A stretch of DNA of 56,526 bases, counting the filler, from Dugesia japonica (Eukaryota), in assembly GCA_001938525.1 (NCBI GenBank). It is 4 parts of 4 records of this genome, joined end to end, with 100 filler letters (N's around TTAATTAATTAA, not from the genome) between each part and the next. Parts side by side here need not be neighbours in the genome. Positions count along the whole stretch, not along the records: positions 1 to 24,201 come from MQRL01647637.1; 3 more parts are not named here. One strand, given 5' to 3'. This document shows positions 11,399 through 40,796 of the stretch, piece after piece. Positions within the stretch are counted from its first letter, which is position 1, and each line of letters starts with the position of its first letter. A program made the translations under genes and the position numbers. A model generated the notes under the pieces. That model was not told where the DNA came from. It searched no databases and saw only the letters and a list, made by a program, of their open reading frames with translations.

Positions 11399-11766
11399 AG
11401 TAGTGTAATAAGAGCGCACTGTCTCACTTGCTTTTTTCGCTAGGAGCGCACTGCCTCACATACTTCTTTTTAATTGGTTTTTTTTGTTTAAATGAGTTGA
11501 AATTATTAATTTTGTTTAAATTAAGTGAAAAATTTAAGTAAGTAAAAAAATGATTCTTTGTTTAAATTAATCGAAATAAATGATTATTTGTTTAAATTTA
11601 ATGAAATTATTTATTTTTTAGTATCTTTATGAAAAAGTTATTGAAAAGCTTAGGTTTGTTTAAATTTTAAAAAAATTATTGAATGTGATTTTCCCCGACA
11701 ATATTAACATAAAATATTCCCCGGACAATATTAATATTAATGTTCCTCGGTAATATTAACATTAAT
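11399..11766 (+). repeat. Left TIR of Polinton copy 1
   Basis: Reverse complement of 23776-24124, with internal subrepeats GAGCGCACTGyCTCAC x2, TTGTTTAAAT x5 and AATATTAAyAT x3. Confidence 0.92.
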
Positions 11767-11874
11767 ACATATAAATTTAAAATAAACAAAATTTGATTTA
11801 AATTAATAATCGTTTGTTTTACTGCTTTAATTTGAAACACACATGAAGTTTTATTACACACACATACTTACTAC

Positions 11875-11882
11875 TATATAAA
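11875..11882 (+). promoter_or_regulatory. Candidate TATA box (TATATAAA) of the spliced Polinton orphan gene
   Basis: Canonical sequence 35 nt upstream of the ATG at 11918. The AT-rich background lowers specificity. Confidence 0.5.
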
Positions 11883-11917
11883 GCAAGTCTTTTAATAATA
11901 TTTGCATTATTTTAAAA

Positions 11918-12315
11918 ATGAAATTCATTACGCATACAAAAGATAATTCGTCATCTTGTGAGACCAAATGTGGTAAGCCACAGAATTACTACAAATATGA
12001 AATTAACTTTTTTAAGAAGACTATGATTTATACTCTTCAGGTAATATTATTTTCGTTTACTTTATTAATATTTTGATTTAGAAACCTGTTAAAGTTCAGA
12101 AATGTACATATAGTTTGCTCATTTCTGAAATAAACTTAGATGATCAATCAACGTTGAATGAATTGTTTTCGAGAATCAACAAATTATTAGAAATAATAGA
12201 TACATCATTCATCAACTTGAAGGAAGAGATCCCCTATGAAAATTCGAGTAAATCAATGATTAAAGCAGAAATACTAGGATATAAAAGATTGTTAAACAAT
12301 ATGGCACCGATATGA
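11918..12315 (+). CDS. Predicted two-exon Polinton orphan protein (118 aa)
   Basis: Exon 11918-12040 (MKFITHTKDNSSSCETKCGKP..TLQ), 41-nt intron GTAATA..TTTAG at 12041-12081, and exon 12082-12315 in frame with the listed 66-aa ORF. Confidence 0.6.
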
Positions 12316-12630
12316 AAAGTTAAAAGTATTAAAAAGATAGAATAGATTTGTTATGTTAATAAATATTTTAATCTTTTTTAGGTATCGTATATATACCGCA
12401 TTCATCATGTTCTAAAAATCCATCATCGTCACTGAATATCCATATCTTTGTATTCAATAGTGTAACTCATAATTATAAATTTGATTTATGATCATTTTGT
12501 TTATAAATTTCTATAATTTAAATTTGAATGAGTCATCTTCTTTGTTCATATTTTGCACTGTTCATGCTTCATACATGCAATGTGCATGCTTCATGCATGT
12601 ATTGGTCATGTCTTTTGCATTAATTTAGTT

Positions 12631-13074
12631 TTACATAATTAAATTATTTAAATCAGATATCACAACATCGACTTGAGGTTGATAATCTAAGGTTTTGATT
12701 CCTACAAAGACTACTTTTCCAGATGAAAATACATTTACTCAGACTGGATTAAATTTTTTAAGTCGTAACCCAGGAAATAATTCAGGTTCATACATGGATT
12801 TAGTTCTTCCTGCTAAATCATATAAATTGATTGAATATCCAAAATTGATAATGACTGTAATCGACTGTAGTTGAATATCTTCGATATCATATTGTAAATG
12901 TTTTCTTTTCAAGGGTTTCTTACATTGTATGATTCTACATCTTCTGGATTTGAAGAATACTAAAGTATATTTTCCATTTTTGTCGACAACTTGTGATGGC
13001 CTGCCAACTGAAAAATTCATTTATCTTGTAACCTCTTGTGAAACTTTGCCTTTGTAATTAATATTTGCAATCAT
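12631..13074 (-). pseudogene. Polinton-encoded compact TATA-binding-protein-like gene (147 codons, 2 in-frame stops)
   Basis: MIANINYKG..TLVFFKSRRCRIIQCK..IQLQSITVIINFGYSINLYDLA..YEPELFPGLRLKKFNPV*VNVFSSGKVVFVGIK. Carries the TBP hallmarks YEPELFPGL and F.SGKVV..G plus a first-repeat equivalent. Confidence 0.85.
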
Positions 13075-13156
13075 AATTATGTCAATAAATTTTGAAAAAG
13101 TGAATATATTAATATACATAAACAATAACTTAATTGATACAATAAAACCAACAATA

Positions 13157-13767
13157 ATGGAATTAAGAAATGATGCTGTTTATCGAATTGTCGGCCCAAG
13201 TATAAGTGAAAAACCCTATTTGTGTGTAGATTATTCAAATCTAACTTCAACAAAATATATTAGCATAGAGGAGCTGATGAGGAACATGGATTAACTCAAT
13301 CCAAATTATGTGATATAAAAATAAAAATTATAAACGGTTTTGATGAGAATTGGAGTAAGAGATTAACTAAAGGTGATGTGATTGTTGTTGATGATTTATA
13401 CCATGAGGCAAACAAGAAAAAGAACTTTAACAATTTATTCACCAAAATATCAAGACATTATATTGTGACTATAATATTTATTACTCAGAATCTATTCCAC
13501 CAAGGAGGTGGACATAGAAATCGTAATTTAAATGTACAATACTTAGTTCTATTTAAAAATCCAAAAGATCAAACAGTTGTTGATTTTCTTGCAAGACAAG
13601 CATATCCGAACAATAGGCAATTTCTTTTGGGTTCATTCAAAGATGCAACAGTAAATTCACATGGATATCTTTTTATGGACTTTACACATCAATATCCAAA
13701 TGAAGTAAGAGTGAGAACTGACATTTTCAATCCAAACGGTGTTACCGTATATAAGAATAATATATAA
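13157..13767 (+). pseudogene. Polinton A32/FtsK-like DNA packaging ATPase (frameshifted)
   Basis: Degenerate Walker A IVGPSISEK, Walker B VIVVDDL, SRH..IIFITQNLF, LNVQYLVLFKNP, HGYLFMDF, RVRTDIF. Confidence 0.92.
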
Positions 13768-13829
13768 TAGTATATATAATAGTATAAACAATAGTATATA
13801 ATAATAACAATAAACGTATTTACTTATTT

Positions 13830-14075
13830 TATTTACAAATCGCAAAATTTACTAAAGTTATAGTTCATCAACTCAAGAATAAAATGATTAAACAAGATAA
13901 CAATTCAAAAGATAACAAAACAATAAAGAAGACAACAAAGAAGTCGACAAAGATTGTTATTAAAAAGAAGTCAACAAAGAAGAAACAATCAAAAAACAGT
14001 TGAACAAGTTCAAAAAATTATCAAAAAGCTTTCGAAAGAAACTAACAGATGTAAATAGAAAATGGATAAAGTTAT
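13830..14075 (+). pseudogene. Lys-rich basic protein (putative DNA-condensing core protein)
   Basis: KKTTKKSTK..KKKSTKKKQ. Syntenic with the intact ORF 36473-36730 in copy 2. Confidence 0.55.
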
Positions 14076-14111
14076 AAACAAATACCTAAGTGTTATATTT
14101 AATAAAAAATT

Positions 14112-14431
14112 ATGAAATTTCAACAAAGTCTTCCGTATTTTAATATATTACTCAAGACTCCAAAAGAGTCTAGAGCAAGAATGTTGCAATCATTTGCACC
14201 ATTTGTTGTTGATGGTTTACTAGAGATTATTGTAAACATAGTTCGTGGTAATGTAGTTATAAGCAAAGTTAAAAAGCAAGTATTGGAAAAACATAAAAGG
14301 TCATTGCTTACACTTGCATATACCAAAAATAAAAAATTATAAAGAAAATATTATAAAAACAACATGGTGGCTTTATTGCTGCATTAATACCTATTGCATT
14401 GGCTGCAATAAATCTAACAAATTTTGCATAA
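14112..14431 (+). pseudogene. Conserved Polinton small virion protein ending in QHGGF plus a hydrophobic helix
   Basis: LLEIIVNIVRGNV..K..L.KHK..L..L followed by QHGGFIAALIPIALAAI. Homologue at 36740-37061. Confidence 0.75.
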
Positions 14432-14459
14432 ACAAAATATACAAAATTTGATATAAACA

Positions 14460-14570
14460 ATGGGAAATTTAGAATCATTACCAAGAATTAATCTAAGATT
14501 TGCATCAAATTGTTGTAATGGACAAAACCGAGATTATATGGACAGAACCGATAAGTCCAGAAGGATTTAA
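14460..14570 (+). CDS. 36-aa micro-ORF with N-myristoylation-like start (MGNLES..CC)
   Basis: MGNLESLPRINLRFASNCCNG..; conserved with MGGLQSLPNFDLKFASDCYNG at 37100-37189. Confidence 0.55.
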   Translation: MGNLESLPRINLRFASNCCNGQNRDYMDRTDKSRRI

Positions 14571-15025
14571 AGGAGGAGTTATAATCATACAAGTCATAAT
14601 GGATTAAATGAAGCAGGACCTGTAGATGTATATTTGAAAATTCAATGAAATTATGGCTATTGAAACAAAAACCGAAAGTAATTAAAAAACCAAAATATAA
14701 AGTTGGTGATCATGTTAGAATCTCAAAGATATTAGCTTCACCATTCATCAAGAATTTTGATAGTATTTGGAGAAATGAAGTGTTTCAAATATCGAAAATC
14801 AAAACTTAACAGATTACAATCATGTATGTGATTAATGATTATCAAGATAATATCATTCAAGGATAATTCTATGAACAAAAATTATAAGTAATTCCACCAC
14901 AAACATTATTTAGAATAGAAAGGATTATAAAATCAAATGGACCAGGATATGATAAACAATTATATGCAAAATGGCATGGATACAAAAATTCTACTTGCAT
15001 ATCAGCATCTCAAATAGTAAATTCA
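14530..15025 (+). pseudogene. Polinton retroviral-type integrase remnant: catalytic core deleted, C-terminal SH3-like and chromodomain parts left
   Basis: YNHTSHNG, KYKVGDHVRISK, W.NEVFQI, IIQG*FYEQ, FRIERII..LYAKWHGY. Confidence 0.85.
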
Positions 15026-15041
15026 ACAAAGAAGAAGAAAA

Positions 15042-16062
15042 ATGAGCAAAACGAATAATTTCTATACACTATTACCCAGTAATAGTTACCCACTTATTCA
15101 TCCGGATAACAATGCTAGTAATTTCAAAATCCAATTTATATGGACGGTCAATGGGAAGTGGCTTTGATGGATTTAACTTTTGTATACTCAGCCTTTCCGT
15201 TTTATAGTAAATCCAATAGTGAATACGTAACAGGAAAAGACGAATGGAAGGAAATACTTGTTACAATTGATAATAAGGAAAAAAGATTGAGTTTCAGTGA
15301 GGATGATGTTATTCAAATATATGAAAAAAAACTTACATATCAAATTACTACATCATGAAAATGAATTGAAATTTGAAAATCTTGAAGATGCAAACCGATT
15401 TGGTTTTGGCAATTTAAATAACGGTATTGAAATTGCAGACACGTTTATTTTCTTTCAGACGTTTAAAAATGATGATTTGATAGAAACCATAAAAATAAAT
15501 TTTTTTTATTCAATAGAAACTGTCAATGTCATACAGTTTAAAGATGATTTGTACATAATGGAAATAGAGTGGTTGAATAAATAATTTGCGGAAAAGTTTT
15601 TTGATATATTTAAAACTCTTTATCTGAAAAAGGATGAACCATTTAGATTTTTGCTGTTAGATAATGTTAAAAGTGTAACATTTGATGTAATTCTAACAAA
15701 AACATTTGGATTAGTCAAACAAAAAGATTTCCGGGGTGATATAATTGATAGTCAAGGAGCTATTGAATTCACGGCTCCTAAGAAACCAAAATTGCTGAAC
15801 TACTATCAAATGTTCATCTATAGTAGCATTATTGAACCTGTTATTGTTGGTGATGTTAGTGTTCTTCTGTTAAAATCCATATGTTGGAAAAGTATGAAAA
15901 TTATCAAGTCTTCCAAATAATTGTTGAAAATCCAATGTATTTTCCAATATCCACATCGTATATAAACAATATTGAAATCAATATACGAGATGATAACGGA
16001 AATTTAATCAATTTTGCTAAAGACTCAAAAACTTTTTTAACACTACATTTGCGAAAAAAATG
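15042..16062 (+). pseudogene. Polinton minor capsid protein (penton, PX)
   Basis: FYTLLPSNS..P.NNASNFK, GQWEVAL, MFIYSSIIEPVIVGD..LL, MYFPI..IEINIRDDNGNLINF..TLHLRK, spread over several frameshifted ORFs. Confidence 0.9.
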
Positions 16063-16432
16063 TCTAATCCGGATATTATCTCATTGTATAGTACTAGTCA
16101 AGCCGGGGGAGAATTACCATATTTTGTAGGAAAACAGTATGGCTCCGGATGGTTGCAAACAATTGGTCGATTTGCTTTGCCTATTCTTAGATGTATTGGA
16201 GCTATTAGTATGAAAACGGCTAAGGATGTGATATCAAATAAATTAAAACTTTTGTCTTTATTTAAAACAAATGCAATGTCTGAATTCACCAATTTGTAGA
16301 CTCTGGTGAACTTTCAAAAATGATACCAAAAAAGGATACAAATCATAAAGGTGCTGGAATTAATTGTGAGAAATCGATCATATCAGGTAGAAACAAACGA
16401 ATGAAAGGCTATGGAACTATATTTGAAAAATC
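16060..16432 (+). pseudogene. Polinton small virion protein with QAGG/QYGSG motifs and an amphipathic helix (pVI/pVII-like)
   Basis: YSTSQAGGELPYFVGKQYGSGWLQTIGRFALPIL, with a basic C-terminus NKRMKGYGTIFEK. Homologue at 38649-39092. Confidence 0.75.
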
Positions 16433-17625
16433 ATTTGTGGAAAAACGTAACTATACATTTTTGATGGTCCATCTTCACAAGGTGTTATTGAATATGAATC
16501 ATTTGAAGATGTGTTTCCAATGAATTCAATTTATGAAATGAGAAATGATGTAGAATTTTTTATAAATGGTTTGCAAACTGATTATCTAGATTTGAATGAT
16601 ACTTTATTGTATGTACAAGTAAAAGTTGTTGATAAATTTGGAAAAGATTTGGGTAAAAAGTCTGATGTAGTTCCGAGAAACTTTGTGTTTTATACTCTGT
16701 TTAAAGATGTTATCCTTTCATTCAACAATATCAAAATCAAAGGTGGCAACGAAACTCATATTCAAAAGGCTATGATTGAAACTGTTTTGAATTATAATTG
16801 AGATAGTAAGAACATTTGTCTTGCAGCAATCGGTTATGGAGATAAAGAAGACAGACACAATTCAATTAAATTATCAAAGTCGTTGTCACTATGCGGTTCT
16901 TGGCAACTAGATTTCATGTATCAGCTAAAATATCTTATTCCTGGTATTAATGTTCACATTCGAATGAAAAGAGCAGCTAATAGAATTGGTTTGGAAACGT
17001 CAACTGAGGAACCTAAATTTGCATTGCTTGATGCAAAATTAATGGTTAGAAGAGTTCGAGTTGAATCATCAGTGCTAACATGTCATCAAATTGGATTAAA
17101 GAAACAAAATGCAGTGTATCCAATTGTGGCTTATGCAATCAGCAAAGATAGTACTACGTTTTATAAGGATCAAATCTTTTGAGATCATCAATTGTCCAAC
17201 TTTTTGTTGGTAATATTTCAAAGCAGAGAAATATAAAACAGTCACTTTAAAACATCAAGCTCAAATTTCGATCATTTTAATGTCATATCTATAACTTTAT
17301 CTAAAAACAGTAATCATATACTCAAGACTTTGAAAATGATAATTATAGCACATCATACATGCAATCAATAGTTAGAAATATGGGATATTTAAACAAGAAT
17401 ATGAATTGTGAAATAACACTTGAGGAAGTTAAAAATGAATATCCATTCTTTATCTTTGTATTTGCTCCAGGTTTTGATATTAATCAGAGTCAATCGCCCC
17501 AACATGGAAATATGAGATTGGATATCAAGTTTGGAAGTGCACTGAATATGCCTGCATATGCAATAATTTATGGAGTATTTGAAAATAAAATCCAGATTAC
17601 ATCAGACAGAGCTATACTAATGTAA
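16430..17625 (+). pseudogene. Polinton major capsid protein (hexon, PY; double jelly-roll)
   Basis: L.IFD.PS.Q..I, VEFFI.G..DYLDLNDTLLYV, YLIPGINVHIRMKR, AKLMVRRV, GNMRLDIKF..AL..IIYGVFENKIQIT.DR. Confidence 0.9.
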
Positions 17626-17689
17626 ATAATCTCAATATCATGAAAATATTTATCCATAATGAAAAACAATTTGAATATTGCTATGATAT

Positions 17690-18043
17690 TACTTTAATAG
17701 TTCAATTCAGATAAATCAAATTGCTACAAAATGGCTTGGATCAGAGTTTCTTGGTGCGTATCCATTGGATAAGTTTCCATTTATTCCAGTTAATGAAACC
17801 ATAATCGTCAATACGCAATCATCAAATCTTAATGAAGGACATTGGTTAGCAGTGTACAATAAACCAGAAAATATACTGGTATTCGATCCATTTGGATTTT
17901 ATTATCCGCCAATGTTGATCTCCCATCTATCAAGATTATCAAAACCAATTATGTACAACAGAATTCAATATCAACAATGTTTAACAACAACTTGTGGTCA
18001 TCATTGCTTATTATGGTTGAAATTTCAACATTGTAATGTGTGA
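17690..18043 (+). CDS. Adenain/Ulp1-clan cysteine maturation protease
   Basis: FLGAYPLD, IVNT..S..EGHWLAVY, VFDPFG, YNRIQYQ..TTCGHHCL. Catalytic H/D/C and oxyanion Q are intact; the start codon is uncertain. Confidence 0.92.
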   Translation, partial: YFNSSIQINQIATKWLGSEFLGAYPLDKFPFIPVNETIIVNTQSSNLNEGHWLAVYNKPENILVFDPFGFYYPPMLISHLSRLSKPIMYNRIQYQQCLTTTCGHHCLLWLKFQHCNV

Positions 18044-18234
18044 TAGAATTAAATAAATGTATTTGAAAATATGTCTGTTATTTACTTTGTTACTTACTTG
18101 GTTGATTTATTGTTTTATATCGCCCTGAACAATATTAAAATATTATTTCAATAATTTAGTTTAAAGAAAGTTTTTAAATTATAAAGGAAAAGTATGTGTT
18201 TATTTCTAATATCTAATCTTATTTTATTTTAGAT

Positions 18235-18559
18235 ATGAATAATACTAATTTTAACAAAATTAACGAAGCAAATAAGAAGAGGAAATTTACTCAAGTAATA
18301 GTTTATAATTTATTTATACTTATTAATTTAAATTTAGGTTAAGGAATTGTCTGAAAATATTGTGCCTAATGGATATTTCATGGCTAACGGATTAAAGAAC
18401 ATGACTAATAAAATTTTTATGACAAATGGATTTACTTATGCAACTAACAGATCTATGTCTAATAGAATGCAATCAGGTATGACTTTAATTTTATAAGTTT
18501 TAATTTACTAAATATTTATTTGATTTAAAGTTGATAATATTTATATGTATTTAATTTAA
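18235..18559 (+). CDS. Predicted three-exon Polinton orphan ORF (~75 aa), or leader exons of the pPolB transcript
   Basis: Exon 18235-18294 (MNNTNFNKINEANKKRKFTQ), intron 18295-18337, in-frame exon 18338-18476, donor CAG/GTATGA and acceptor at 18530. An extra 5'-UTR intron-like GTATGT..TTTTAG lies at 18192-18232. Confidence 0.5.
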
Positions 18560-18959
18560 GTAATTTAGACTTTATTTTATAATAAATTTTATGCTTTAAG
18601 TAAATTATTTCATTTATATTAAAATTTAAGCCTGTTGATTATAATTTCATTACATTTTTTAATTGTAATGATTTTATTTTCAATGTTAAATTAATTATCA
18701 TTATAATTTTATCGTAATGATTTTAAACGCAAGATAATATTATCAATACTTTTCTTTTAAATGTAATAATCAGTTAACTTCATTACAATTTTTTTTGTTT
18801 GAATGATTTTATTTATATTTTTAATTTAATCATTATAACTTTTATTGTAATGATTAAAACTTAACATAACATTAACAAATTAAACTTTAAATTTATTGAA
18901 TTAACTAAATGTATGTTGAATATATTTATAAGTTACAAGTAATTTATAGATTTTAATTA

Positions 18960-19346
18960 ATTACTATGACTTTATTTATTGATTTAATTTGATGTATACA
19001 ACCTTAGTGATTTAATTAACAACCATGATTTACTTATTGATTGATTTTAATGCATACAAGTTTATTTAATAATTTAAATTAATGATTTATTTATTCATTA
19101 TAATTATTGGTTATGATTTATTTATTGACTTATTAAAAACTATGATTTATTTTTTGATTTTAATTAATAACTATGATTTATGTAATAATTTAACTAATGA
19201 CCTTAACATTTTAATGGCCTTTTAATTGATCTAAACTTTTTAAAAGAACTTTTAACGACCTTGAGCGTTTAAGTGATCTTACCCTTTTAAATGACCTTGA
19301 ACTTTTAATTGATCTTAACATTTTAAATAACCTTAACCTTTTATAG
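18960..19346 (+). repeat. Degenerate tandem arrays: ATGATTTATTTATTGA-like units, then ~17-18-bp TGACCTTrA-like units
   Basis: Visible repeats between the protease and pPolB. Exact TGACCTTGA at 19292-19300. Confidence 0.7.
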
Positions 19347-19411
19347 ATAAAATTTTACAAATCTCTATAAACAATAAAAGAATAACTTTATTTATTTAAG
19401 AAACTTGCAAA

Positions 19412-22400
19412 ATGTATACAAACTATTGTGGAATTTCAAATCATTACGAAGACGGTCACGATATAATGGATAATTATTATAGTCTTATTTATTGTGGGGA
19501 AAAAATATTATGTTTGTCCATCATCCACTACATTAGGGATAAATACATACATAGAGTTTTATATGGCACATATACATCACTTGTCTCAATTCTTTGAAAA
19601 GAAGAGAATAGTACTGAAGAAAATTCTCGAAGGACCTCCATGTAAAAAGTTTAAAGCAGAATTGGAAATTATAGTCATTGAGTATGATATTATTATCAAG
19701 AATGAACAAGTTGAACCAAAAGTTATAGTCATTGATGATGCTATTATTATCAAGAACGAATCAGTCAAACCAGAGGTTAAAGTCATTGAAGATGATATTA
19801 TTATCAAGAATAAACCAGTCAAACCAGAGGTTATAGTTATTGAAGATGATATTGAGAAAGAAATGGACTGGAATAATATCAAAATAATCGAAGAACTAAA
19901 TGAAGAGGACTTTGTTGATGAAGATGATGATGTAGAAGAAGTGTTCCAAAAATATATGAAAGAAGAAGTACAAATAGATGGATCCATCGACGAATCAGTT
20001 ATTGAAACAGACTTGTACAAATGTCACCAGATCTTGAAATTAGATGTTTCAAGATTTAACATGAAAGAGAAAATTTTACCAGATTCTTTGGTTTAAAAAC
20101 TGAATAAAATTATCAAAGAAATGAAGATTATAAAAATCCAGTTTGGAATTCATGTAAAATTTATAAAGGATCATGAAATAAAAAGTATTTATTTATCTTA
20201 TAGTGATGTACTACCTAGGGATACATTTTTTGAAGATGGGATTAGGATATTGAATGAGAAGATTGTTGTAAGAAGCGAGTTAAGAAGTAGCTGGACACTT
20301 CGTAGGATATTAGAAATAAACTTTAAATTGACTAAAATTAGCAAAATAAGTATATTGTAAGGTCACAGTCATATTCCGACACCTGAAAATCTTAAAGCAA
20401 AGAAAGCAATTTTTAACGTAAAAAACAATGATGATAAATGTTTCATATATAATGTTCTCGCTATTCTAAAACAAGATTTAATAGAAAAAAAGAATGGGAA
20501 TCGTTCAACCTAATATAATAGGTTTATGTCAGATCTTGTTTTCAGTGAAAATGACATGCCCACAAAATTGGTGAATATTCCTAAATTTGAAAAACAAAAC
20601 CCCGGATTGAGTAAAAAATATACTATCAAGGAATACGAGCTCAAATAAAGTTGATGAAAATCAAGCTGTCATGAAACATCCAAACCTTTATATAATTCAC
20701 AGATCAAAAGGTGATGGTGGACAGAAATTAAATTTATTATTACTTAAAGATGATGATAAATTTCATTATACTGCNNNNNNNNNNNNNNNNNNNNNNATAG
20801 GCTTATGAATAGAGATATTAAAATGAATGGTGTTCGAATTCAATCAATATGGTGTCCTAAATGTCTGAATCGTTTCAGATACAGCAAAGCTTTTGAGACC
20901 CATGAACCAATTTGTGAGAGGATACAAACAGGAACCACACTTTATACAATGCCTCATAAAAAGAAATTAATGTTTAAAGATTATTCAAAAACTGTAACTC
21001 CACCATATGTCATTTACACTGATTTCGAATCAGTGTAAGAGAAAGATCTTGAACATTATCAGAAGCATTTGCCTAAATCAGCAGGACTTTTGCTAGTAAA
21101 TAATTTCACTAACGAATATCAATATCATACATTTACCGGAACAGACTGTGTTTACAATTTCTTGAAAATGATTGAATAAATTACCAAGAACATTGTATAC
21201 CATTACTAAGAAGAAAATAGCAAGAAAAAGTTGAAAATCACACCGGATGAAGAAATTAAATTCAAAGAAACGACTTTTTGTCATTTATGCAAGAAAAATA
21301 TAGTAAATCCGGTTAGAGACCATGATCATTTCACCGGTAAATATGTTGGTGCTGCATGTTCAAAATGCAATATTATTAGAAAAATCAGATATGATTTACC
21401 AATAATCTTTCATAATCTTAGAGGTTATGACTTGCACCATATATTGAAATACGGACTCAGTCAATTTGCATATTGGAATATCTCGTGCATACCGACTACT
21501 TGCGAGAAATTCTTATGCTTGATTGCACACTATAAAAACTTAAACATAAGGTTTATCGATTCATATCAGTTTATTAATAGTTCATTGGATGCAGTTGTTA
21601 AAACAATTCAATCAACTCCATTACCATCCAAGAAGTTTAATGACACAGAATTATCAAATCAAAGGGAATTTTCCCATATAATTTTGCTACTAGCCTGACA
21701 GTGTTGAAAGAAACTGAATGTATGCCACCAATATGGAATGGTGTTAATGAAGAATGTTATCAAAAGGCTCTGAAAATGTGGACTATTACTGGATGCAAGA
21801 ATTTATTGGATTACATAATGATTTATCTAAAACTAGATGTATTTCTGCTGGCTGACTTTTTTCAACAATTTCGAACAAATTCGCTAGCACACAACAGACT
21901 GGAGCCGTTAACATTCTTTGGAATTCCAGGCATGAGCTTGGCATCAGCAATGATGACCCTTAAGGATCTAATCGGATTGCTTACCGACAATGATATGTTC
22001 ACATTTTTCAAGGAATGAATCAAAAGTGGACTTACATTTGTCAATAAACATTATGTGAAATCAGACGAAAACACTGAGCTTTTGTACATCGATATAAATA
22101 ACTTATATGGATGGGCATTAAGCCAGAAATTGCCATATTTGGATTTTCAATGAATACATACAAGATTAGAGCAAATATTAGACGAATGCAGAACATCGAA
22201 TCTAGAATGATTACCATATGGTTACACAGTAGAAGGTGACATTGAAATACCGGACGAGTTACACGATTTTTTAAGTGATTTACCTGTTGGATCCGAACAT
22301 CAGAGCTCACCAGGAAGTAAGGTAAAGAAGCTGTTATTAACACATAATACCAAACTGAATTATGCTGTACATTGGCGATTGTTACAACTGTACATGCAAC

Positions 22401-23310
22401 TAGGTGTTAGGATCGCTAAAATACATAAAGCTGTAAAAAGTTCACACAAGATTATATTTTCAAGAAATATATAGATGAAAATACTGAACTAAAATCTAAA
22501 AGTACATCAGATCTAGATAAGAATTATTATAAGCTTTTAAACAACAGCTTGTACGAAAGGACAGTAGAAAATCTAAAGAAAAGGATGAATCCCAGACTGT
22601 GTAATTCAGCAAAATAGCTTATTACATACGCTTCGAAGCCAAGCTTTAGGAAAACAATTAAAATAGATCAGGATTTAATTGCGGTATTGTTGAATATGGA
22701 TAGAGTTTTTCTCATTCGTCCTAGCTATANTGGTCAAACAGTATTGGACTTGAGTAAGTTAAGAATGTATCAGCTCATATACATCCAGCTTTAGAAATAT
22801 AGGACAGATGAAAAATTTATCATAAATATAGTGACAAGAGATACTGACAGTTTTTTCTCGGAAGTGAAAGGTATTGTATTGGAAAGATTGTTAAAACTGA
22901 TGGTTCAGGATGAATTGTTGGACACTTCAAATTATGATGCAGAACATTCCCTTTACAACAACAACCTAAATTCAGCAGTAGGGAAATTCAAAGACGAAAG
23001 CAAGGGTAAGAGATTCAAGGAATGGGTTTTTCTGAGACCGAAATGTTATGGTCTCCTTAGCGAAAAGACCAGCATGAAGGCTAAAGGGATAACATTAAAA
23101 GATACCGACTTAACACACCACTCGTATCTAGATTGTTACAATAACAATCAATCGGTCTCAGTAGAATAATTTAGGATAGTCATAATAAACCACCAATCGT
23201 TTAGTTTTAACAGACCAAAAATAGCATTAACCAACAATGACGATAAGAGAGTATGGACACACGAAAAATCGAATGTTCCATACCGACATTGTAGTTTGAC
23301 CGTAATAAAT
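19412..23310 (+). pseudogene. Protein-primed B-family DNA polymerase (pPolB) with N-terminal extension
   Basis: IPTPENLKAKKAIFNVKNNDDKCF, CPKC..H..C, ExoI YTDFES, EndoVII-like CHLC..VRDHDHFTGKYVGAACSKCN, ExoII FHNLRGYDLH, ExoIII YLKLDV, PolA YIDINNLYG, PolB KLLNNSLY, PolC DTDS, KFKDE, LRPKCY, KAKG, DDKR. Confidence 0.95.
19686..19856 (+). repeat. 54-bp coding tandem repeat (~3 units; IIIKNExVKPEVIVIEDD)
   Basis: Units start at 19686, 19740 and 19794, with a partial unit at 19848. Confidence 0.9.
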
Positions 23311-23775
23311 AAGACTTTGGATCAGCAATAGAATGTATAGGTAATGAATTTATTTGAACTTATTAAAAATTATTTTATTATTTAGCAATCAAACGAAAAA
23401 TCCAAACAAATCTATGCATTCCAACTAGCTTTTATTGAGCGGACTTATATTGAACTGGCATTATTAACTGTTTGTTATAATACATAATAAATTTTCTCAA
23501 ATGTGATTAGTGTCTTGATTTATTTTTTATTTGTTAATATTGTGAGCGATTAATGCTATTGTTAATATTACCTTAGAACAATTAATATTAATAGACCTAT
23601 AAACATCTAATTTCTGGAGCATTGAATAGTTTGTTCAGGGAGCATCTAATGTCGGTTACAACCAAGAGTTCATACCCATAGACATCTCATAGTTTGTACT
23701 CTGTAACAACTATTGTTTCCAACCAACAACTCATAGTATAAACACTGAAACATCCATTTATATAAAACTTGAGTA

Positions 23776-24124
23776 ATTAATGTTAATATTGCCCGAGGAA
23801 CATTAATATTAATATTGCCCGTGGAAATTTAATGTTAATGTTTCCCGGGGAGGAATATTTTATGTTAATATTGTCTGGGAAAATCACATTCAATAAATTT
23901 TTTTTAATTTAAACACACATAAGCTTTTCAATAACTTTTGATAAAGATACTCAAAATTAAAAATTTCTTTAATTTAAACAAATAATCATTTATTTCGATT
24001 AACTTAAACAAAATAAATAATTTCAACTCATTTAAACAAAAAAATCATTAAAAAAGAAGTATGTGAGACTGTGCGCTCCTATGAAAAAAAAGCAAGTGAG
24101 GCAGTGCGGACTTATCTACCTACT
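23776..24124 (-). repeat. Right TIR of Polinton copy 1
   Basis: Reverse complement of 11399-11766; ends ...CTACCTACT. Confidence 0.92.
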
Positions 24125-24245
24125 TTCAGAGAATGGCGTAAGTAAGCACGAAATTCGAAAAATCTACATAAGAAAAGAAAATGAAGAATTCGAACCCAAG
24201 ANNNNNNNNNNNNNNNNNNNNNNNNNNNNNNNNNNNNNNNNNNNN

Positions 24246-24257
24246 TTAATTAATTAA
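24246..24257. other. Artificial contig linker TTAATTAATTAA inside an N run
   Basis: Identical six-frame-stop 12-mer in the middle of N runs here and at 34671 and 43819. Confidence 0.9.
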
Positions 24258-24301
24258 NNNNNNNNNNNNNNNNNNNNNNNNNNNNNNNNNNNNNNNNNNN
24301 N

Positions 24302-26972: not shown

Positions 26973-27900
26973 ACGGATGAATGGAACGACATTGAAAAAG
27001 TTTATGAGGATTGTCAAAATAATATAAAGGATATATGTCCTAGGAGAAATACTAGTCCAAGCGATGGACAAAATTCAAATTATAATGGATATAACAATAG
27101 ATGATTAATCCCTAGAAGGGGTTACAACGGATACAATAATAACCGAGATTTTAATCGAAATAGTAATTTTAGAGACGAACAGAGTTCAGAAAGACGATAT
27201 AATGATAATAGATGTGATAAAAGAATAAATAATCAAATCTTTTACAGAAATGTTAATAATTGAAATGATATTCGAAATTTCGGCAATAGAGATAATAATG
27301 GAAATTTTAATAAATCTAGAAATCGAAGTAGTAGCGATGAAAGATATAATATTTCAGCCTCAGGCTAATAGTTTTATTGATGATCCAACGGTTTAGAAAC
27401 AAATAACAGAAGTAAAAAAGAAATTTGAGATAACTAGAAAACAAAATCCGTCAATTGATAGAATACAAGACAATAGTTTGAGACAGATCGCTCAAGATCA
27501 AATGGAAGAAGACGATAGTTCACTGAGTTATGAAAGATTGGTAATAAAAGATTTGATACGACTGACACTTACTAGTCATTACGATTGTAGTAAAGTAAAA
27601 CCCATAACAAAAGGAATATTTGAGAATGTACAACTAATAAAAGGTGAAGTCAGCAAATTAATCAATGCAGATTCAAATGTTAATGACTCAAAAGTCATAA
27701 ATGCAATGATGAGCGATGGCAATAATAAAAGCAAAGTAATGACTGCTATATTATATCTAATATTAAGATCAGAAGAATTTCTAATGAAAAGTCCAAAAGG
27801 ATTATTATCAGAAACAGAAAAAATGATAAATTACCATCTAAAAATGAAATTATTCCTAGGATAAAACAACAAGGGAGGTGGGAAGCAATATATCCTAATT
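26973..27900 (+). pseudogene. N/R-rich gag C-terminal-like region plus an unknown ~150-aa domain
   Basis: YNGYNNR..NRDFNRNSNFRD..RNRSSSDERY low-complexity stretch, then ORF 27478-27864. The gag assignment rests on position and composition only. Confidence 0.5.
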
Positions 27901-28029
27901 TGAATAGAGATAATAATAATACAAAAAAATCATTTAAAAATGACAACAATCAATCTGATATATCAAATAAACAAGAAAATGAGATAAGAAGATTGATTAA
28001 TCAGCCATCTTCAAAGCGTAACAGCTCTA

Positions 28030-34670: not shown

Positions 34671-34682
34671 TTAATTAATTAA
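34671..34682. other. Artificial contig linker TTAATTAATTAA
   Basis: Same as 24246. Confidence 0.9.
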
Positions 34683-35295: not shown

Positions 35296-35739
35296 TACTA
35301 AATTTTTTCAAGCAAATTAAACAAATCTGATTGTTATTTACATATCCTTGAAGATACAAATTTTTAAGTCCCAGTATCACTAGTTTTCTTGTTGAGAACA
35401 CATTAACACATAAAAATCATATTTTACAAGTCTTAGAGCTGGAAATAACTCTAGTTCGAAACAACAGTTGACTATTCTTGCTAATTTATACAATTTTATT
35501 GAAACTCCCATATTTACGACAACGGATAGCGATTGCAATTTTACATGTTTTATATAATCATGCAGTTCCAATGGTTTNNNNNNNNNNNNNNNNNTTATTC
35601 TACATTTTCCTGATCTGAAGAATAGAATTGTATATTTGTCACTTTTGACTTGAAATTGACATGGTTTGCCTGTAGGAAAGCTCATTTTCTTTGTTACTTC
35701 TTGTGAAACTTCACCACGGTAATTAATATTAGTTATCAT
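35296..35739 (-). pseudogene. TBP-like gene of Polinton copy 2
   Basis: MITNINYRGEVSQEVT..YTILFFRSGKCRI..VKLQSLSVVVNMGVSIKLYKLA..FELELFPALRL.., frameshift, then VFSTRKLVILGLK. 3' end approximate. Confidence 0.82.
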
Positions 35740-35846
35740 AATTAATGAAGTAATTAGGAACAATGAGGATTTGATAGAGTTAATTTAATTTATCCGTGAA
35801 AACAAATATAAACAATGCACTAAATTATGAATAAAGAAAAAACAAG

Positions 35847-36447
35847 ATGGAGATTAAGAAATGATGCAGTCTATCAAATTGTAGGACCTAGTGGGAAAAC
35901 TTTGTTTGTATGTCAGTTATTGAAATCAAAGTTATTCAAGTAAAAATTAGAAAACATATACTAGCATAGGTGTGCAGATGAGGAGCATTGGCTGACTAAA
36001 TCTAAATTTTGTAATATTAAAATAAAAATGATCAATGGTTTTGATAAAAATTAAAACAAAAGATTAAGACCAAGTAATGTTATTGTTGTTGATGATCTGT
36101 ATCAGGAGGTGAACAAAGAAAAAGATTTCAATAATTTATTAACAAAGATATTGAGATATACTAATGTGACTTTGATATTTATTACTCAAAATCTATTTCA
36201 TCATAGAACTCGTAATTTAAACGTGAAATAAATGGTTCTATTAAAAATTTCTAGATATCGGACTGTTGTTGATTTTATATCAAGACAAGCATATCCAAAT
36301 AATAGAAAATTTCTTATTGAATCATTTCAAATTTCAACAGAAAAACTACATGAATATCTATTTCTTGACTTAACACAACAATGTCCAGATGATTATAGAG
36401 TAAGAACAGATATAATCATTCCAAATGGCATCACAATATATAAATAG
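35847..36447 (+). pseudogene. Packaging ATPase, copy 2
   Basis: MELRNDAVYQIVGPSGKT, VIVVDDL, FITQNLF, RQAYPNN, RVRTDI. Confidence 0.9.
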
Positions 36448-36472
36448 GTAATTTTTCATAATATTTTAAAGA

Positions 36473-36730
36473 ATGACAAAATTAAAGAAATTTGTAGTTT
36501 ATCAAGTAACTGATGGTGTTGTTAAACGTCAAAAAATATCTTTTGATAAGAAAAATTATGGAAAACAGAAGAAACAACCGCATAAGAAACAACATGTAAA
36601 TAAAAAGCAACAAGTAAATAAAAGGAATATGTTTAAAAAACCTGCAAAACGAAGGGGAAAGAAACTGAGAATGATGAACAGAAAAAAGGATTATAAACAA
36701 ATTATAAATAAATGGTATGTATTATTTTAA
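36473..36730 (+). CDS. Lys-rich basic protein (85 aa; putative DNA-condensing core protein)
   Basis: Intact, very K/R-rich ORF directly after the ATPase in both copies. Confidence 0.65.
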   Translation: MTKLKKFVVYQVTDGVVKRQKISFDKKNYGKQKKQPHKKQHVNKKQQVNKRNMFKKPAKRRGKKLRMMNRKKDYKQIINKWYVLF

Positions 36731-36739
36731 TCAATAAAA

Positions 36740-37061
36740 ATGAAATTACAAAGAAGTATTCCTGTTTATTTTGCAGCTTTGATTAAATCCTCAAAACCTT
36801 TTAGAATGAGAATTTTACAATCATTCCCATCATATGTTATGGATGATTTATTTGAAATTATTATAAATATTGTTCGTGGTAATGTAGATTTGAGTGCAGC
36901 TAAAAAGAAAACATTGAAAAACATAAAAAAAACTTTATTAACGCTTGTAAACACAAAATTAGGAAATCAATAAGACGAGTAATGAACAATCAAAGTGGTG
37001 ATTTTATAGCAGGATTGCTACCAATTGCATGAGCTGCATTAAGCTTAACTTATTTCAAATA
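36740..37061 (+). pseudogene. GGF-type small virion protein, copy 2
   Basis: LFEIIINIVRGNV..QSGDFIAGLLPIA. Confidence 0.75.
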
Positions 37062-37099
37062 AACAATGATTGAATTTAATATTACAACTCAAATGAACA

Positions 37100-37189
37100 A
37101 TGGGTGGATTGCAATCATTACCTAATTTTGACTTGAAATTTGCATCAGATTGTTATAATGGTGACAGAAATGAAATCAATTTAGATTGA
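37100..37189 (+). CDS. 29-aa micro-ORF MGGLQSLPNFDLKFASDCYNG..
   Basis: Homologous and syntenic to 14460-14570; overlaps the integrase start. Confidence 0.55.
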   Translation: MGGLQSLPNFDLKFASDCYNGDRNEINLD

Positions 37190-37525
37190 TCCAGAAAACC
37201 CGGCAAGTTTTCATGGCCTAATAAATTAATGAAAGCAGCTCAAAAATCCTAAAGACAGACAAAAAAGTGGTTAGCTGGACATCTAGCATATAGCTTGAAC
37301 AAGTCAATGTTGAAAATGTTTCCAACAAAAGCATATAAAGCATTTGGTATTGATGATTTATGTTAAATGTATCTAATTAAAATGGTTCCATATTCAAAAA
37401 TTAATAAAGTTTACAAGTTTTACTTTTGTTATTTATCGTTGTATTCAATAGATCTGCAAGAATTTCCCGGTTTAAAGGAAATAGAATGAATAAACAATAC
37501 TATGTAAAATGCTATGGATAAAACA
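37170..37525 (+). pseudogene. Polinton integrase remnant, copy 2 (N-terminus kept, core deleted)
   Basis: DPENPASF, KWLAGHLAYSLNK..FPTKAY..GIDDL, then a jump to chromodomain-like KQYYVKCYG. Confidence 0.75.
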
Positions 37526-37571
37526 AAGTGAGGTATAAGTATCACAAATTGTCAACAAAGACAATTATTCT

Positions 37572-38648
37572 GATGAAATCAAATAATTNNNNNNNNNNNN
37601 NNNNNNNNNNNNNNNNNNNNNNNNNNNNNNNNNNNNNNNNNNNNNNNNNNNNNNNNNNNNNNNNNNNNNNNNNNNNNNNNNNNNNNNNNNNNNNNNNNNN
37701 NNNNNNNNNNNNNNNNNNNNNNNNNNNNNNNNNNNNNNNNATTTACAGTCAATCAAGGATTAAATATGAATTATTTAAGCCAATTGAGAAAGAACTAATA
37801 CTTGATGTTAACAACAAAAAAAGGGTGCTTTTAACAGTTAATTCTCAAGATAAATATAAAAATAATACAGAAACAGATACAATATTCAAGAAAAATAAGA
37901 TAACCTTTAGTAGTGATATTAAATTCCACAGTTTATCATTCGATACTTTTGAAAACTTGGTAAGATTTACATTTTGTAGAGGGTAATAGAAATTATAATA
38001 GTATAACTTTCGATGATCATAAATTATTTTCGATTCGCTTTCATGACTTTAAAAACGATGATTTTGTTGAAAAAATAAAAGTTAAATACTATTATGTAAC
38101 TGTAACTAAACACTCTTTTCAATTTGAAACAGATTTGTATATAGAGNATTTAAATCAACTACATGAATACTTGAAGAAAAACCTTTCAATATTATTTAAA
38201 ACCTTTTAATTAAATAAAGATGAACTATTTGAATTTACATTATCGAGTAGAACTAAAAGAGTTAGATTCGATAAAATCTTAACAAAATCACTAGTATTAA
38301 ATGAATCGCAATATACTCTTATACAAAATAATGATGAACTAATACAATATAAAAGTAATAAGAAACCAAGAATATTAAGGGGTTATAATGAAATGTTTAT
38401 CTATTGAAGTATTGTTGAACCTATAATTGTTGGAGATCTTAATGTTCCATTATTAAAAGCAATATAGATAGAACAGCATAAAAACGATGAAGTAGTGCAA
38501 ATAATTGTTGATCATCCAATGTATTTACCTATATTTTCATCATATATAAACAATATAGAAATAATTATACGCGATGATAATGGAAAACTAGTCAACGTTG
38601 CTGAAGACTCAAAAATACATTTAATGTTACATTTTAGAAAAATTAATA
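37572..38648 (+). pseudogene. Penton/minor capsid, copy 2
   Basis: MFIY*SIVEPIIVGDLNVPLLK..HPMYLPI..IEIIIRDDNG..LHFRK. Confidence 0.85.
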
Positions 38649-39092
38649 ATGAACCCTGATATTGTATCATTGTACAGTACTAGTCAAGCAGGTGCAGAAT
38701 TATCTTACTTTCTTGAAAAAAAGTATGGATCTGGGTAGTTCCGAACAATAGGGAGATTTGCTTTGTCAATTCTTAGACTTATTGGTTCTTTTGGTATGAA
38801 AACAGCTCAAGATGTACTAGCTAATGNTGGAAAAATACTACCCACATTGAAATCAAATGCATTAGCTAAATTTGGAAATGTAGTTTCTTCCTTACCTAGC
38901 GGAGTAACCAGCATGATTATAAAAGTAGCAAACATATAACCGCAAAGTATAATTAATAAAATACCATCAGAAATAACTAATATGCTAACAAATCAAGTAG
39001 AAACACCACAAAATAGTAGAAAACGTAGGAAATCTCATGGTTCACGTATAAACAAACGAATGATAGGACATGGAACAATATTTGAAAAATGA
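38649..39092 (+). pseudogene. QAG/YGSG small virion protein, copy 2
   Basis: MNPDIVSLYSTSQAGAELSYF..YGSG*FRTIGRFAL..NKRMIGHGTIFEK. Confidence 0.8.
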
Positions 39093-39480
39093 TTTGCGGT
39101 AAAACTGAATTATGCATTTTTGATAGACCATCTCCTCAAGCTGTAATTTTAAATGGTATTTTTGAAGATGTCTATTCTAAGAATTCAATTTCTGAATCAC
39201 AAAGTGATGTAGAGTTTTTTTAAACGGATCTCAAACAGAATTTTTAGTAATCCTAGTAACTATATGTNGCATACACTTTTTAAGGATGTAATTTTTTCGT
39301 TTAATAATTTCAAAATTGAAGGTGGAAATCGATGTTTTATTCACAAAGCATTGATTAAAATTTAAAACATTATAATGGCGATAATAAAAATATCTGTCTT
39401 ACAGCAATGGGATATGGATCAGAAGCAGATAAAAAAAGTCTATTGCAAAATCAAAACAATTATTTCTATGTGGTTCTTTG
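39089..39480 (+). pseudogene. 5' fragment of major capsid (hexon), copy 2
   Basis: MICGKTELCIFDRPSPQAVI..TLFKDVIFSFNNFKIEGGN. Confidence 0.8.
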
Positions 39481-40796
39481 CAATATCTTTGTAATCTTTA
39501 TTTTATAAAAAGTTCCAATGTAATGAGTCTTTTTTATAAGAATTTCCTCTGTAATAAATTATTTTTTTTAAAACATTCCAATGTAATGAATCTTTTTTTT
39601 TNNNNNNNNNNNNNNNNNNNNNNNNNNNNNNNNNNNNNNNNNNNNNNNNNNNNNNNNNNNNNNNNNNNNNNNNNNNNNNNNNNNNNNNNNNNNNNNNNNN
39701 NNNNNNNNNNNNNNNNNNNNNNNNNNNNNNNNNNNNNNNNNNNNNNNNNNNNNNNNNNNNNNNAATAGGGTTGCAACACACACATTCACACAAAAATGTG
39801 TCCCTTTAAATTTTGAAAACTATTCAAAAAACGAAAATATATTAAAAATATTAATATTTCAATAGGGATGCAACTCAGATGCAACGCATGAGCAACATAC
39901 ATAATCTAAATCACATGACAAATAATTTTTAATCATATGTCTATTAATTTTTAATCTCATAAAATCATTAAAAGTCATAAATTGCTTAGTAAATTTTTTT
40001 TAACTTCTAATATTATTAATATTGTAATAGGAATTCAACATACAAAAAAATCATGTGTCTGCAAATTTTTAAAACTACTCCTACCACTAAAATATAACAA
40101 TAACCCATAGTAACTATGTAAAATGTAAGTTAACTAATAATAATTTAATTTTAAAAAATTTATATTCATATTACCATAATTATAATAATTAGAATTATGA
40201 TAATNNNNNNNNNNNNNNNNNNNNNNNNNNNNNNNNNNNNNNNNNNNNNNNNNNTAATAATTTAATTTTAAAAAATTTATATTCATATTACCATAATTAT
40301 AATAATTAGAATTATGATAATATGAAATCAAACAATCAATAAATATATTGATTGCTTAATTTCATAATACAGTCTAAAAAAATCAATAATGGATTATAAT
40401 AAATTACTAAAAACCTGATAATAATTTGAAGAAATCCTATTGGCTNNNNNNNNNNNNNNNNNNNNNNNNNNNNNNNNNNNNNNNNNNNNNNNNNNNNNNN
40501 NNNNNNNNNAACCTGATGAATATAATATGTTAAGGACAAGGGGTAAGAAAATATTTGTGTGCACACACATGCACAAAAAAGCTAACATTCATTATTTTTC
40601 AATTTAGTAAGGGACCACCTCATTTCAGTAATACCGTTTTTTTGTAATAAAAAATTAATTGAATTTAGATCGATTTCGAAACTATTTCAAGCTCTAGCTC
40701 GGAAGCCACAATTCCGGCCAAAATCAATAAAACAAGAGCAAAGTAATATTGTAAATTTATCAATGAAATATTTATAAAATTATTAGGATTTCCTCT

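What the first reader, a model, noticed from the sequence alone, without database searches (positions are those of the whole stretch)
12631..13156. Polinton encodes its own compact TATA-binding protein, head-to-head with the virion operon
Seen: a 147-codon minus-strand gene with the TBP signatures YEPELFPGL and VFSSGKVV.VG and a shortened first repeat (LVFFKS..CRI). It is divergent from the ATPase-capsid-protease cluster across only ~80 bp, and the arrangement recurs at 35296-35846. Known: TBP homologues are typical of cells and large nucleocytoviruses; the canonical Polinton gene set (pPolB, INT, ATPase, PRO, MCP, mCP) has no basal transcription factor. Inference: a small integrating DNA virus with a captured, streamlined TBP that could redirect host Pol II to viral promoters, or act as a decoy against host TBP.
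Basis: partly seen in the sequence, partly recalled or inferred. Interest (0 to 1): 0.88.

Follow-up and report, generated by a model that had tools for sequence, protein, structure and literature searches.

The report
Polinton's own rewired TATA-binding protein
Two decayed copies of a virus-like jumping element each carry a broken gene for a shrunken TATA-binding protein; intact relatives keep a rewritten DNA-facing surface and a shared DNA motif before their capsid genes, so the protein likely switches those genes on by borrowing the host's transcription machinery.

Summary
The TBP is real: Pfam TBP above cut-off, full saddle fold (Z 12.5, rmsd 2.6 Å). It lies in a 12.7-kb Polinton with terminal inverted repeats.

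Intact relatives form a large Polinton TBP clade under purifying selection (dN/dS 0.06-0.37). It keeps three of four DNA-kinking phenylalanines and the TFIIB-binding glutamates. It shortens two N-lobe helical regions and fixes new, mostly polar residues on the DNA face.

A non-canonical motif, YATAAAC, precedes 48 of 55 core virion/integrase genes in relatives and 10 of 12 here, but not the TBP gene. The head-to-head layout is local: 0 of 21 relatives show it. No TFIIB was found nearby.

Best reading (0.65): a viral late-gene TBP that reads YATAAAC and recruits host TFIIB and Pol II. Binding is untested. A TBP label already appears in a figure legend on related viruses (Starrett 2021), and this scan noted the family before in at least 3 other genomes.

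The parts
11399..24124 (+). Polinton/adintovirus-type element 1 (12,726 bp), decayed; AGT termini; 6-bp flanks TTCAGC / TTCAGA (5 of 6 match, likely target-site duplication)
11399..11766 (.). left terminal inverted repeat (76% to the right one over 374 columns)
12070..12324 (+). remnant of a conserved TBP-neighbour gene; an intact relative folds like T7 gp2.5-type single-stranded DNA-binding proteins (likely SSB)
   Evidence: profile hit E 1.4e-8; fold of a relative Z 7.5, rmsd 3.0, 105 aligned, middling Z
12631..13074 (-). compact TBP gene, copy 1, 147 codons; pseudogene with stops at codons 18 and 112
13075..13156 (.). 82-bp divergent spacer between TBP and ATPase
13117..13124 (+). CATAAACA, the YATAAAC motif; its ATAAAC starts 39 nt before the ATPase ATG; candidate late-promoter TATA variant
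13157..13767 (+). A32/FtsK-type packaging ATPase remnant (2 stops)
14112..14345 (+). small conserved Polinton gene after the ATPase (1 stop); ATAAAC 38 nt upstream
14636..15040 (+). C-terminal part of the rve integrase (3 stops); the catalytic core of the relatives finds no match in this element
15057..16060 (+). minor capsid (penton) remnant, named by position and similarity to relatives, no Pfam hit; 5 stops and a frameshift
16066..16296 (+). small conserved gene before the major capsid gene
16436..17622 (+). major capsid protein remnant (4 stops, frameshift); a distant relative has a weak Capsid_N hit
17744..18019 (+). adenovirus-type cysteine protease (Peptidase_C5, E 0.006, below cut-off)
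20097..23298 (+). protein-primed PolB remnant with endonuclease VII-like domain (19 stops, 2 frameshifts)
23802..24124 (.). right terminal inverted repeat
35341..35739 (-). compact TBP gene, copy 2; N gap 35578-35594 and frameshift near 35414
35807..35814 (+). TATAAACA motif; its ATAAAC starts 40 nt before the second ATPase ATG
35848..39483 (+). second element's ATPase, small gene, integrase, penton, small gene and start of major capsid gene, all decayed

Best explanation
These are two dead copies of a gene that intact Polinton relatives keep under purifying selection, and the protein is likely a viral late-gene TATA-binding protein. Steps: (1) Shown: full TBP saddle, shortened in the N-lobe. 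(2) Shown: the family keeps F116, F190, F207, P191, N69 and the TFIIB-contact glutamates E186/E188 (yeast numbering), and fixes new residues on the DNA face (V71N, F99P, A101Q, V122R, T124M, N159S, V161T, I194R, L205N). (3) Shown: virion and integrase genes, but not the TBP gene, sit behind a strand-specific YATAAAC motif, most often 31-41 nt before the ATG. (4) Inferred: the TBP gene is made early from a host-type promoter, and its product binds YATAAAC, with the rewritten N-lobe reading the changed 3' half. (5) Inferred: it recruits host TFIIB and Pol II through the kept stirrup, since no TFIIB or RNA polymerase was found in the elements. Loss of the basic H2 patch would let it escape Mot1/NC2/TAF1/TFIIA-type control. 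The result would be a one-protein early-to-late switch. The copies in this window cannot make the full protein.
For: Fold: pLDDT 93 with X at the breaks. Foldseek has 44 matches at E<=0.001, and every listed row among them is a TBP structure. VIA Z 12.5, rmsd 2.7, 144 aligned to yeast TBP, model 1-147 = yeast 66-239. Residues in 48 family members de-duplicated at <80% identity from 62: E188 48, F190 48, F207 48, F116 47, N69 47, E186 45, L189 45; V122R 48, I194R 48, L205N 48, F99P 47, T124M 47, V71N 45, A101Q 44, N159S 44, V161T 44. Most of these positions are listed as DNA-facing in PMC12529657 Table 1, where herpes ORF24 also turns V122, T124, V161 and L205 polar. The C-lobe glutamate pair is the TFIIB contact (PMC7221094). 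H1 region 27 to 16 aa and H2 region 31 to 18 aa in the compact forms. Motif within 120 nt upstream after de-duplication: ATPase 16/17 (shuffles 1.7), MCP 8/9, INT 8/11, protease 4/5, in total 48/55 core genes, each group 0 of 100 shuffles; TBP gene 4/41 (3.1 expected). The seventh base is C in 78 of 95 sites before these genes and in 0 of 19 before TBP genes. Strand bias follows the virion genes, e.g. 16:0, 10:0, and 2:9 where they lie on the minus strand. In the window 10 of 12 gene starts have it. TBP genes carry canonical TATAWAWR (18/41, 5.0 expected) and an Inr-like TCANT (24/41, 6.2 expected). dN/dS 0.06-0.37 in 15 of 19 pairs (2 saturated, 2 near-identical dropped); window copies 0.27. 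Loci chosen by ATPase: L065 has TBP and the motif; L066 and L067 show no TBP and no motif before 10 of 10 non-PolB genes. No TFIIB Pfam hit in three scans of 50, 33 and 86 locus ORFs, partly overlapping, nor in two unassigned window stretches.
Against: No binding, start-site or expression data. A structure of cellular TBP on a C(-25) TATA variant exists (1qn3, listed; that this equals TATAAAC rests on recalled numbering), so host TBP can bind such a site. All motif-bearing loci but one were chosen for having TBP. The TBP-less control is two incomplete contigs from one assembly, with a different PolB type, so co-occurrence is barely tested. The shuffles ignore kinship and codon constraint where the motif lies in an upstream gene. 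A strict TATA-to-Inr spacing of 28-34 nt is met in only 6 of 41 TBP upstream regions, and the window's copy 1 has no canonical TATA. One of four kinking phenylalanines and R196 are not kept. Over the whole window ATAAAC is no commoner than chance (82 vs 76), and it is absent before element 1's MCP and protease. Most loci are fragments, so a divergent TFIIB could be missed.
Confidence: 0.65

Rival explanations
1. Host TBP reads the YATAAAC promoters; the viral TBP is a decoy or dominant negative that ties up host TFIIB/Brf or blocks host promoters.
For: The TFIIB stirrup is nearly invariant. Cellular TBP has been crystallised on a C(-25) variant (1qn3). One kinking Phe is lost.
Against: A pure decoy would not need nine fixed new residues on the DNA face. 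The motif fixes a C where host TATA boxes prefer A/T and starts with C in 22 of 65 sites. Two TBP-less fragments lack the motif.
Confidence: 0.14
2. The TBP reads the motif but works through another adapter: a viral TFIIB-like protein too divergent for Pfam, or host Brf1/Brf2 with Pol III.
For: Most viral TBPs come with a viral TFIIB, and Brf1/2 use the same glutamate (PMC7221094). Earlier scan notes report TBP+TFIIB pairs in other Polintons (unchecked). Motif sites lack a downstream Inr (2 of 64).
Against: No TFIIB hit in the ORFs scanned, which include those of the four longest loci. The one conserved neighbour I folded looks like an SSB. AT-rich genes hold many T-runs, which end Pol III transcripts (own knowledge).
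Confidence: 0.13
3. The protein has a non-transcriptional DNA role (replication or packaging), and the motif is something else, such as a weak poly(A) signal.
For: The gene often sits beside an SSB-like gene. TATAAA and CATAAA resemble poly(A) variants (own knowledge), and the motif often lies at the end of the upstream gene.
Against: The base before ATAAAC is never A (0 of 65), so it is not AATAAA. The motif also precedes the ATPase in the window, where no same-strand gene ends upstream. The TFIIB contact is kept.
Confidence: 0.05
4. A neutral, recently captured host TBP retrocopy that is decaying.
For: Both window copies are broken.
Against: The rest of the element is equally broken. The family is one side of a branch apart from 19 eukaryotic and 7 archaeal TBPs (SH-aLRT 96, quick tree). 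Purifying selection; 33 relatives of 100-171 aa, mostly about 150.
Confidence: 0.01

Closest known systems
Cellular TBP (Pfam PF00352; yeast 1ytb, human 1cdw, archaeal 1mp9)
   Same: Two-lobed saddle over the whole length; F116, F190, F207, P191, N69, K120, K211; EPEL stirrup.
   Different: About 147 vs 180 aa; N-lobe H1 and H2 regions cut; F99 to Pro; eight further DNA-face positions fixed as new, mostly polar, residues; basic H2 patch absent.
Beta/gamma-herpesvirus vTBP (KSHV ORF24; PMC12529657, abstract and first part of Results read)
   Same: Polymerase-less nuclear DNA virus; TBP fold with a polar DNA face (V122, T124, V161, L205 changed in both); reads a non-canonical TATA variant on late genes. 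This is what it most likely works like.
   Different: ORF24 is a 752-aa multi-domain protein in a complex of six viral activators, keeps all four Phe, lacks the TFIIB glutamates and binds Pol II directly. The Polinton protein is a bare 150-aa saddle that keeps them.
NCLDV and mirusvirus TBPs (PMC7221094 passages and section 11; PMC10132985 passages; BFVD hits)
   Same: Virus-encoded TBP that has lost eukaryotic N-lobe regulator sites.
   Different: Those viruses mostly encode their own TFIIB, and mirusviruses their own RNA polymerase; their stirrup glutamate is about 40% conserved. Here it is 45-48 of 48, with no TFIIB or polymerase found.
'TBP' gene of a MELD virus with adintovirus-like PolB (Starrett et al. 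2021, PMC8502044, Fig. 5 legend)
   Same: A TBP-like gene in a mid-size Polinton-related virus is already labelled.
   Different: In the text I searched it is only a legend label. The figure is not held, so I cannot tell which virus or whether it is this clade. No residue analysis, promoter motif or spread is described in the passages read.
Polintons / Mavericks / adintoviruses
   Same: TIRs, AGT termini, 6-bp flanks, pPolB, rve integrase, A32 ATPase, protease, two capsid genes.
   Different: Carries TBP and a likely gp2.5-type SSB. The only Polinton transcription factor I found named in the papers searched, apart from that legend, is VLTF3 (PMC11131425 and PMC8502044, passages).

Membership tests
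TBP family (PF00352) | Pfam TBP score above gathering cut-off | tested here: met
   44.7 bits vs 22.9 for copy 1; the copy 2 piece is 22.3, just under
TBP family (PF00352) | two-lobed saddle fold | tested here: met
   VIA Z 12.5, rmsd 2.7, 144 of 147 aligned to 1ytb
Canonical cellular TBP | four intercalating phenylalanines (F99, F116, F190, F207) | tested here: not met
   three kept; F99 is Pro in 47 of 48
Canonical cellular TBP | hydrophobic/Asn-Thr DNA face (V71, V122, T124, N159, V161, L205) | tested here: not met
   replaced by N, R, M, S, T, N in 44-48 of 48
Canonical cellular TBP | C-lobe TFIIB-contact glutamates E186/E188 | tested here: met
   45 and 48 of 48
Canonical cellular TBP | basic N-lobe H2 patch for TFIIA/TAF1/Mot1/NC2/Brf1 | tested here: not met
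   K138 and K145 columns are gaps in 49 and 53 of 64 rows; region 31 to 18 aa
Canonical cellular TBP | binds and bends TATA DNA, supports initiation | not testable with these tools
   needs binding and reporter assays
Polinton/Maverick | terminal inverted repeats, AG...CT termini, 6-bp target-site duplication | tested here: met
   11399-11766 / 23802-24124; flanks match 5 of 6
Polinton/Maverick | pPolB, rve integrase, ATPase, protease, major and minor capsid genes | tested here: met
   all present as remnants; integrase core not matched in element 1; capsid names rest on relatives and position
Polinton/Maverick | intact, active element | tested here: not met
   stops or frameshifts in TBP, ATPase, INT, mCP, MCP, PolB
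NCLDV-type orthogonal TBP-TFIIB pair | virus-encoded TFIIB | tested here: inconclusive
   no Pfam TFIIB hit in locus ORFs or two window stretches; loci mostly partial, Pfam only
Herpesvirus vTBP (ORF24/UL87/BcRF1) | large multi-domain protein lacking the TFIIB glutamates | tested here: not met
   about 150 aa, glutamates kept; only weak fold hits, E about 0.02
TRF2/TLF or animal TBP paralogue | nests with animal TBP paralogues in a tree | not tested

The most novel reading that the evidence does not exclude
A broad clade of animal-type Polintons runs the smallest viral late-transcription system yet seen: one 150-aa TBP whose DNA face was re-specified for YATAAAC, which plugs into host TFIIB and Pol II and ignores host TBP regulators. 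This would show that these elements transcribe their virion genes in the nucleus without a helper virus, and would give a natural altered-specificity TBP-promoter pair.
Probability: 0.5. Interest if true: 0.8.

Novelty: new variant of a known kind. Interest (0 to 1): 0.6.

Why it matters
How Polintons/Mavericks express their capsid genes, and whether they need a helper virus, is open as far as I know (own knowledge). A dedicated TBP plus a 7-base motif makes this directly testable with one small protein and one oligo. It would parallel, apparently independently, the herpesvirus late-promoter trick, but through host TFIIB. It would also be a natural example of a TBP with changed specificity. 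The locus itself is a fossil: its value is as a pointer to the family.

Tried and rejected
No whole genome is held for this window, so other copies in the host could not be counted.

Searches for Polinton relatives in viral contigs with ATPase and capsid queries found none. Genome contigs gave three fragments. A TFIIB family search of the records behind five loci was not possible.

Sequencing runs: no RNA holder listed, and no run held half of the words. No reads were laid, so expression and start sites are open.

I first took L060 (179-aa TBP) as a motif-less contrast. One search showed ATAAAC before four of its genes and a 2:9 strand bias, so it is not a contrast.

The conserved neighbour was tested as a possible TBP partner; it folds like an SSB. 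The careful tree did not finish; only the quick tree is used, and L047, L062 and a broken fish row were left out. I did not assign the element to Starrett's Alpha or Beta class.

Literature: searches. Word look-ups for TBP/TATA gave 0 hits in the main texts of PMC11161782, 10.64898/2026.06.19.733378, 10.1101/2023.08.22.554363, 10.1101/2025.02.07.637071 and PMC11131425. The Starrett supplement is cut at 4 million characters and its slide files cannot be read; the held part has no TBP. Unseen supplements, Repbase entries and subscription papers may annotate this gene. The TATA-variant structure paper could not be found.

Full report
Observation. Read with X at the breaks it matches Pfam TBP at 44.7 bits against a cut-off of 22.9, and its best solved relatives by sequence are TBPs. 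The second copy near 35341-35739 has an N gap and a frameshift. Both are divergent from an ATPase gene, across 82 and 108 bp. The copies are 67.5% identical in DNA and lie on either side of what look like assembly linkers.

The element. Copy 1 lies in a 12,726-bp element, 11399-24124, with inverted repeats of about 370 bp, AGT termini and 6-bp flanks that match at 5 of 6 positions. Proteins of intact relatives map onto it in order: SSB-like gene, TBP, ATPase, small gene, integrase, penton, small gene, major capsid, protease, PolB. Most carry stops or frameshifts, and the integrase core finds no match. It is a decayed Polinton, and the TBP decayed with it.

The family. A protein search gave 34 hits among 55 candidates, 20 of them full-length 144-158-aa proteins at 43-64% identity. 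A profile found 54 clusters at E<=1e-30 among 50%-identity representatives. Of 60 metagenome loci, 30 have a Polinton core gene within the contig; most of the rest are short. Among 21 loci with both TBP and ATPase, 17 are co-oriented, 3 divergent but far apart and 1 convergent. The tight head-to-head layout is therefore peculiar to the window's lineage. In a quick tree of 88 rows, the 52 Polinton-type TBPs form one side of a branch (SH-aLRT 96), apart from 19 eukaryotic, 7 archaeal and 10 other TBPs. They were gathered by likeness, branches are long and no animal TBP or TLF was included, so the donor is unresolved. dN/dS is 0.06-0.37 in 15 usable pairs of 19, and 0.27 between the window copies, against 0.19 for their ATPases.

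Structure and residues. AlphaFold2 gives a confident model that aligns over 144 residues to yeast TBP 66-239 (Z 12.5, rmsd 2.7). In 48 de-duplicated members the C-lobe EPELF stirrup and F116, F190, F207, N69 and P191 are kept. V71N, F99P, A101Q, V122R, T124M, N159S, V161T, I194R and L205N are fixed in 44-48 of 48 (numbering from a yeast-type TBP row anchored). PMC12529657 Table 1 lists most of these as DNA-facing and shows herpes ORF24 turning V122, T124, V161 and L205 polar. PMC7221094 names the two C-lobe glutamates as the TFIIB contact and a basic N-lobe patch as the regulator site, and reports that viral TBPs usually diverge at the former and bring their own TFIIB. Here the glutamates are kept and the H2 region is cut from 31 to 18 residues. 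No TFIIB was found by Pfam in the neighbouring ORFs. The one conserved neighbour I folded is SSB-like.

Promoter-like motif. ATAAAC occurs within 120 nt upstream of 48 of 55 de-duplicated core virion and integrase genes, for example ATPase 16 of 17 against 1.7 in dinucleotide shuffles. It occurs before only 4 of 41 TBP genes, the chance level. It is preceded by T or C in 62 of 65 sites and never by A, and most often lies 31-41 nt before the ATG. It follows the strand of the virion genes. In the window it precedes 10 of 12 gene starts (two integrase starts estimated), including both ATPases, and shows 7:0 strand bias in element 1's virion block against 9:11 outside the elements. Window-wide it is not enriched. 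TBP genes instead tend to have canonical TATA and Inr-like signals, though the strict pair is met in only 6 of 41. Of three fragments picked by ATPase, the one with a TBP has the motif, and the two without a visible TBP lack it before 10 of 10 non-PolB genes. This control is small, incomplete and from one assembly.

Mechanism. Shown: fold, residue pattern, selection, motif and its gene bias. Inferred: early expression of TBP from a host-type promoter; binding of YATAAAC; recruitment of host TFIIB and Pol II; escape from host TBP regulators. By my own knowledge the N-lobe of TBP contacts the 3' half of the TATA box, which is where both the protein (F99P, V122R, V71N) and the motif (C at position 7) depart from the host pattern. 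In the window's lineage the motif lies 44 nt from the TBP start on the other strand, so binding might also damp the TBP gene itself; that is speculation. I give this reading 0.65. The rivals are a decoy with host TBP reading the motif (0.14), another adapter (0.13), a non-transcriptional role (0.05) and neutral capture (0.01).

What is known. Viral TBPs are known from giant viruses, mirusviruses and herpesviruses. Starrett et al. 2021 label a TBP in a figure of viruses with adintovirus-like PolB; I saw the legend, section 3.4, passages and part of the supplement, not the figure. Five further Polinton papers have no TBP or TATA in their main text. Searches showed no study of this family or motif, but unseen supplements and Repbase may name the gene. 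This scan noted Polinton TBPs 16 times in at least 3 other genomes, some with a shared TATA-like motif. These notes are unchecked and not independent support. My note planned the motif search before I saw them; the TFIIB check was prompted by them and by PMC7221094.

Verdict. Observation partly confirmed: a real TBP, but a pseudogene here. It is a new variant of a known kind: it works, most likely, like a herpes-type late TBP, but is a member of neither that family nor the canonical cellular one. Interest 0.6.

Noticed in passing
window 24202-24301, 34627-34726, 43775-43874: Identical N44-TTAATTAATTAA-N44 joins, probably artificial assembly linkers; the window is several contigs strung together.
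   Followed up: partly
window 42903-43772, minus strand: A third Polinton fragment with ATPase (C-terminal half) and protease remnants, cut by a linker; no TBP seen.
   Followed up: partly
window 7090-8874, minus strand: Intact single-frame 594-aa ORF with a C-terminal kinesin motor (Pfam E 5.6e-76); possibly an intron-less host gene or retrocopy.
   Followed up: no
window 27500-34100: Ty3/gypsy-type retroelement pieces (protease, RNase H, integrase zinc finger) with an env-like ORF at 29449-30189 matching Monjiviricetes fusion glycoprotein (E 7e-40), lying before the protease.
   Followed up: no
window 40842-41426; 2288-3077; 47993-48454: Tc1/mariner-type transposase HTH remnant; further retroelement RNase H and gag zinc-knuckle pieces.
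   Followed up: no
window 19563-20096: Open 177-aa acidic ORF with three 18-aa repeats (54 nt) directly before PolB; no Pfam hit; possibly the N-terminal part of the PolB gene.
   Followed up: no
L014:665-1015 and relatives; window about 12070-12324: Conserved 110-190-aa gene beside the TBP, predicted OB-fold like T7 gp2.5 and ASFV CP312R; nearest Atlas clusters are mostly Nucleocytoviricota.
   Followed up: yes
L044, L051, L060, L065 vs L005-L043: The family has long forms (165-180 aa, H1 and H2 largely kept) in PLA2-bearing elements and compact forms in others, all with the same rewritten DNA face; the specificity change seems to predate the shrinking.
   Followed up: partly
L065, L066, L067: Polinton fragments sit inside bacterial metagenome-assembled genomes, most likely binning contamination.
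   Followed up: no
L048, L049, L051, L055, L060; L010:4008-4319; L024:1918-3330: Accessory genes in TBP-bearing elements: KilA-N/DUF3627, RING fingers, a dual-specificity phosphatase, leucine-rich-repeat proteins.
   Followed up: no
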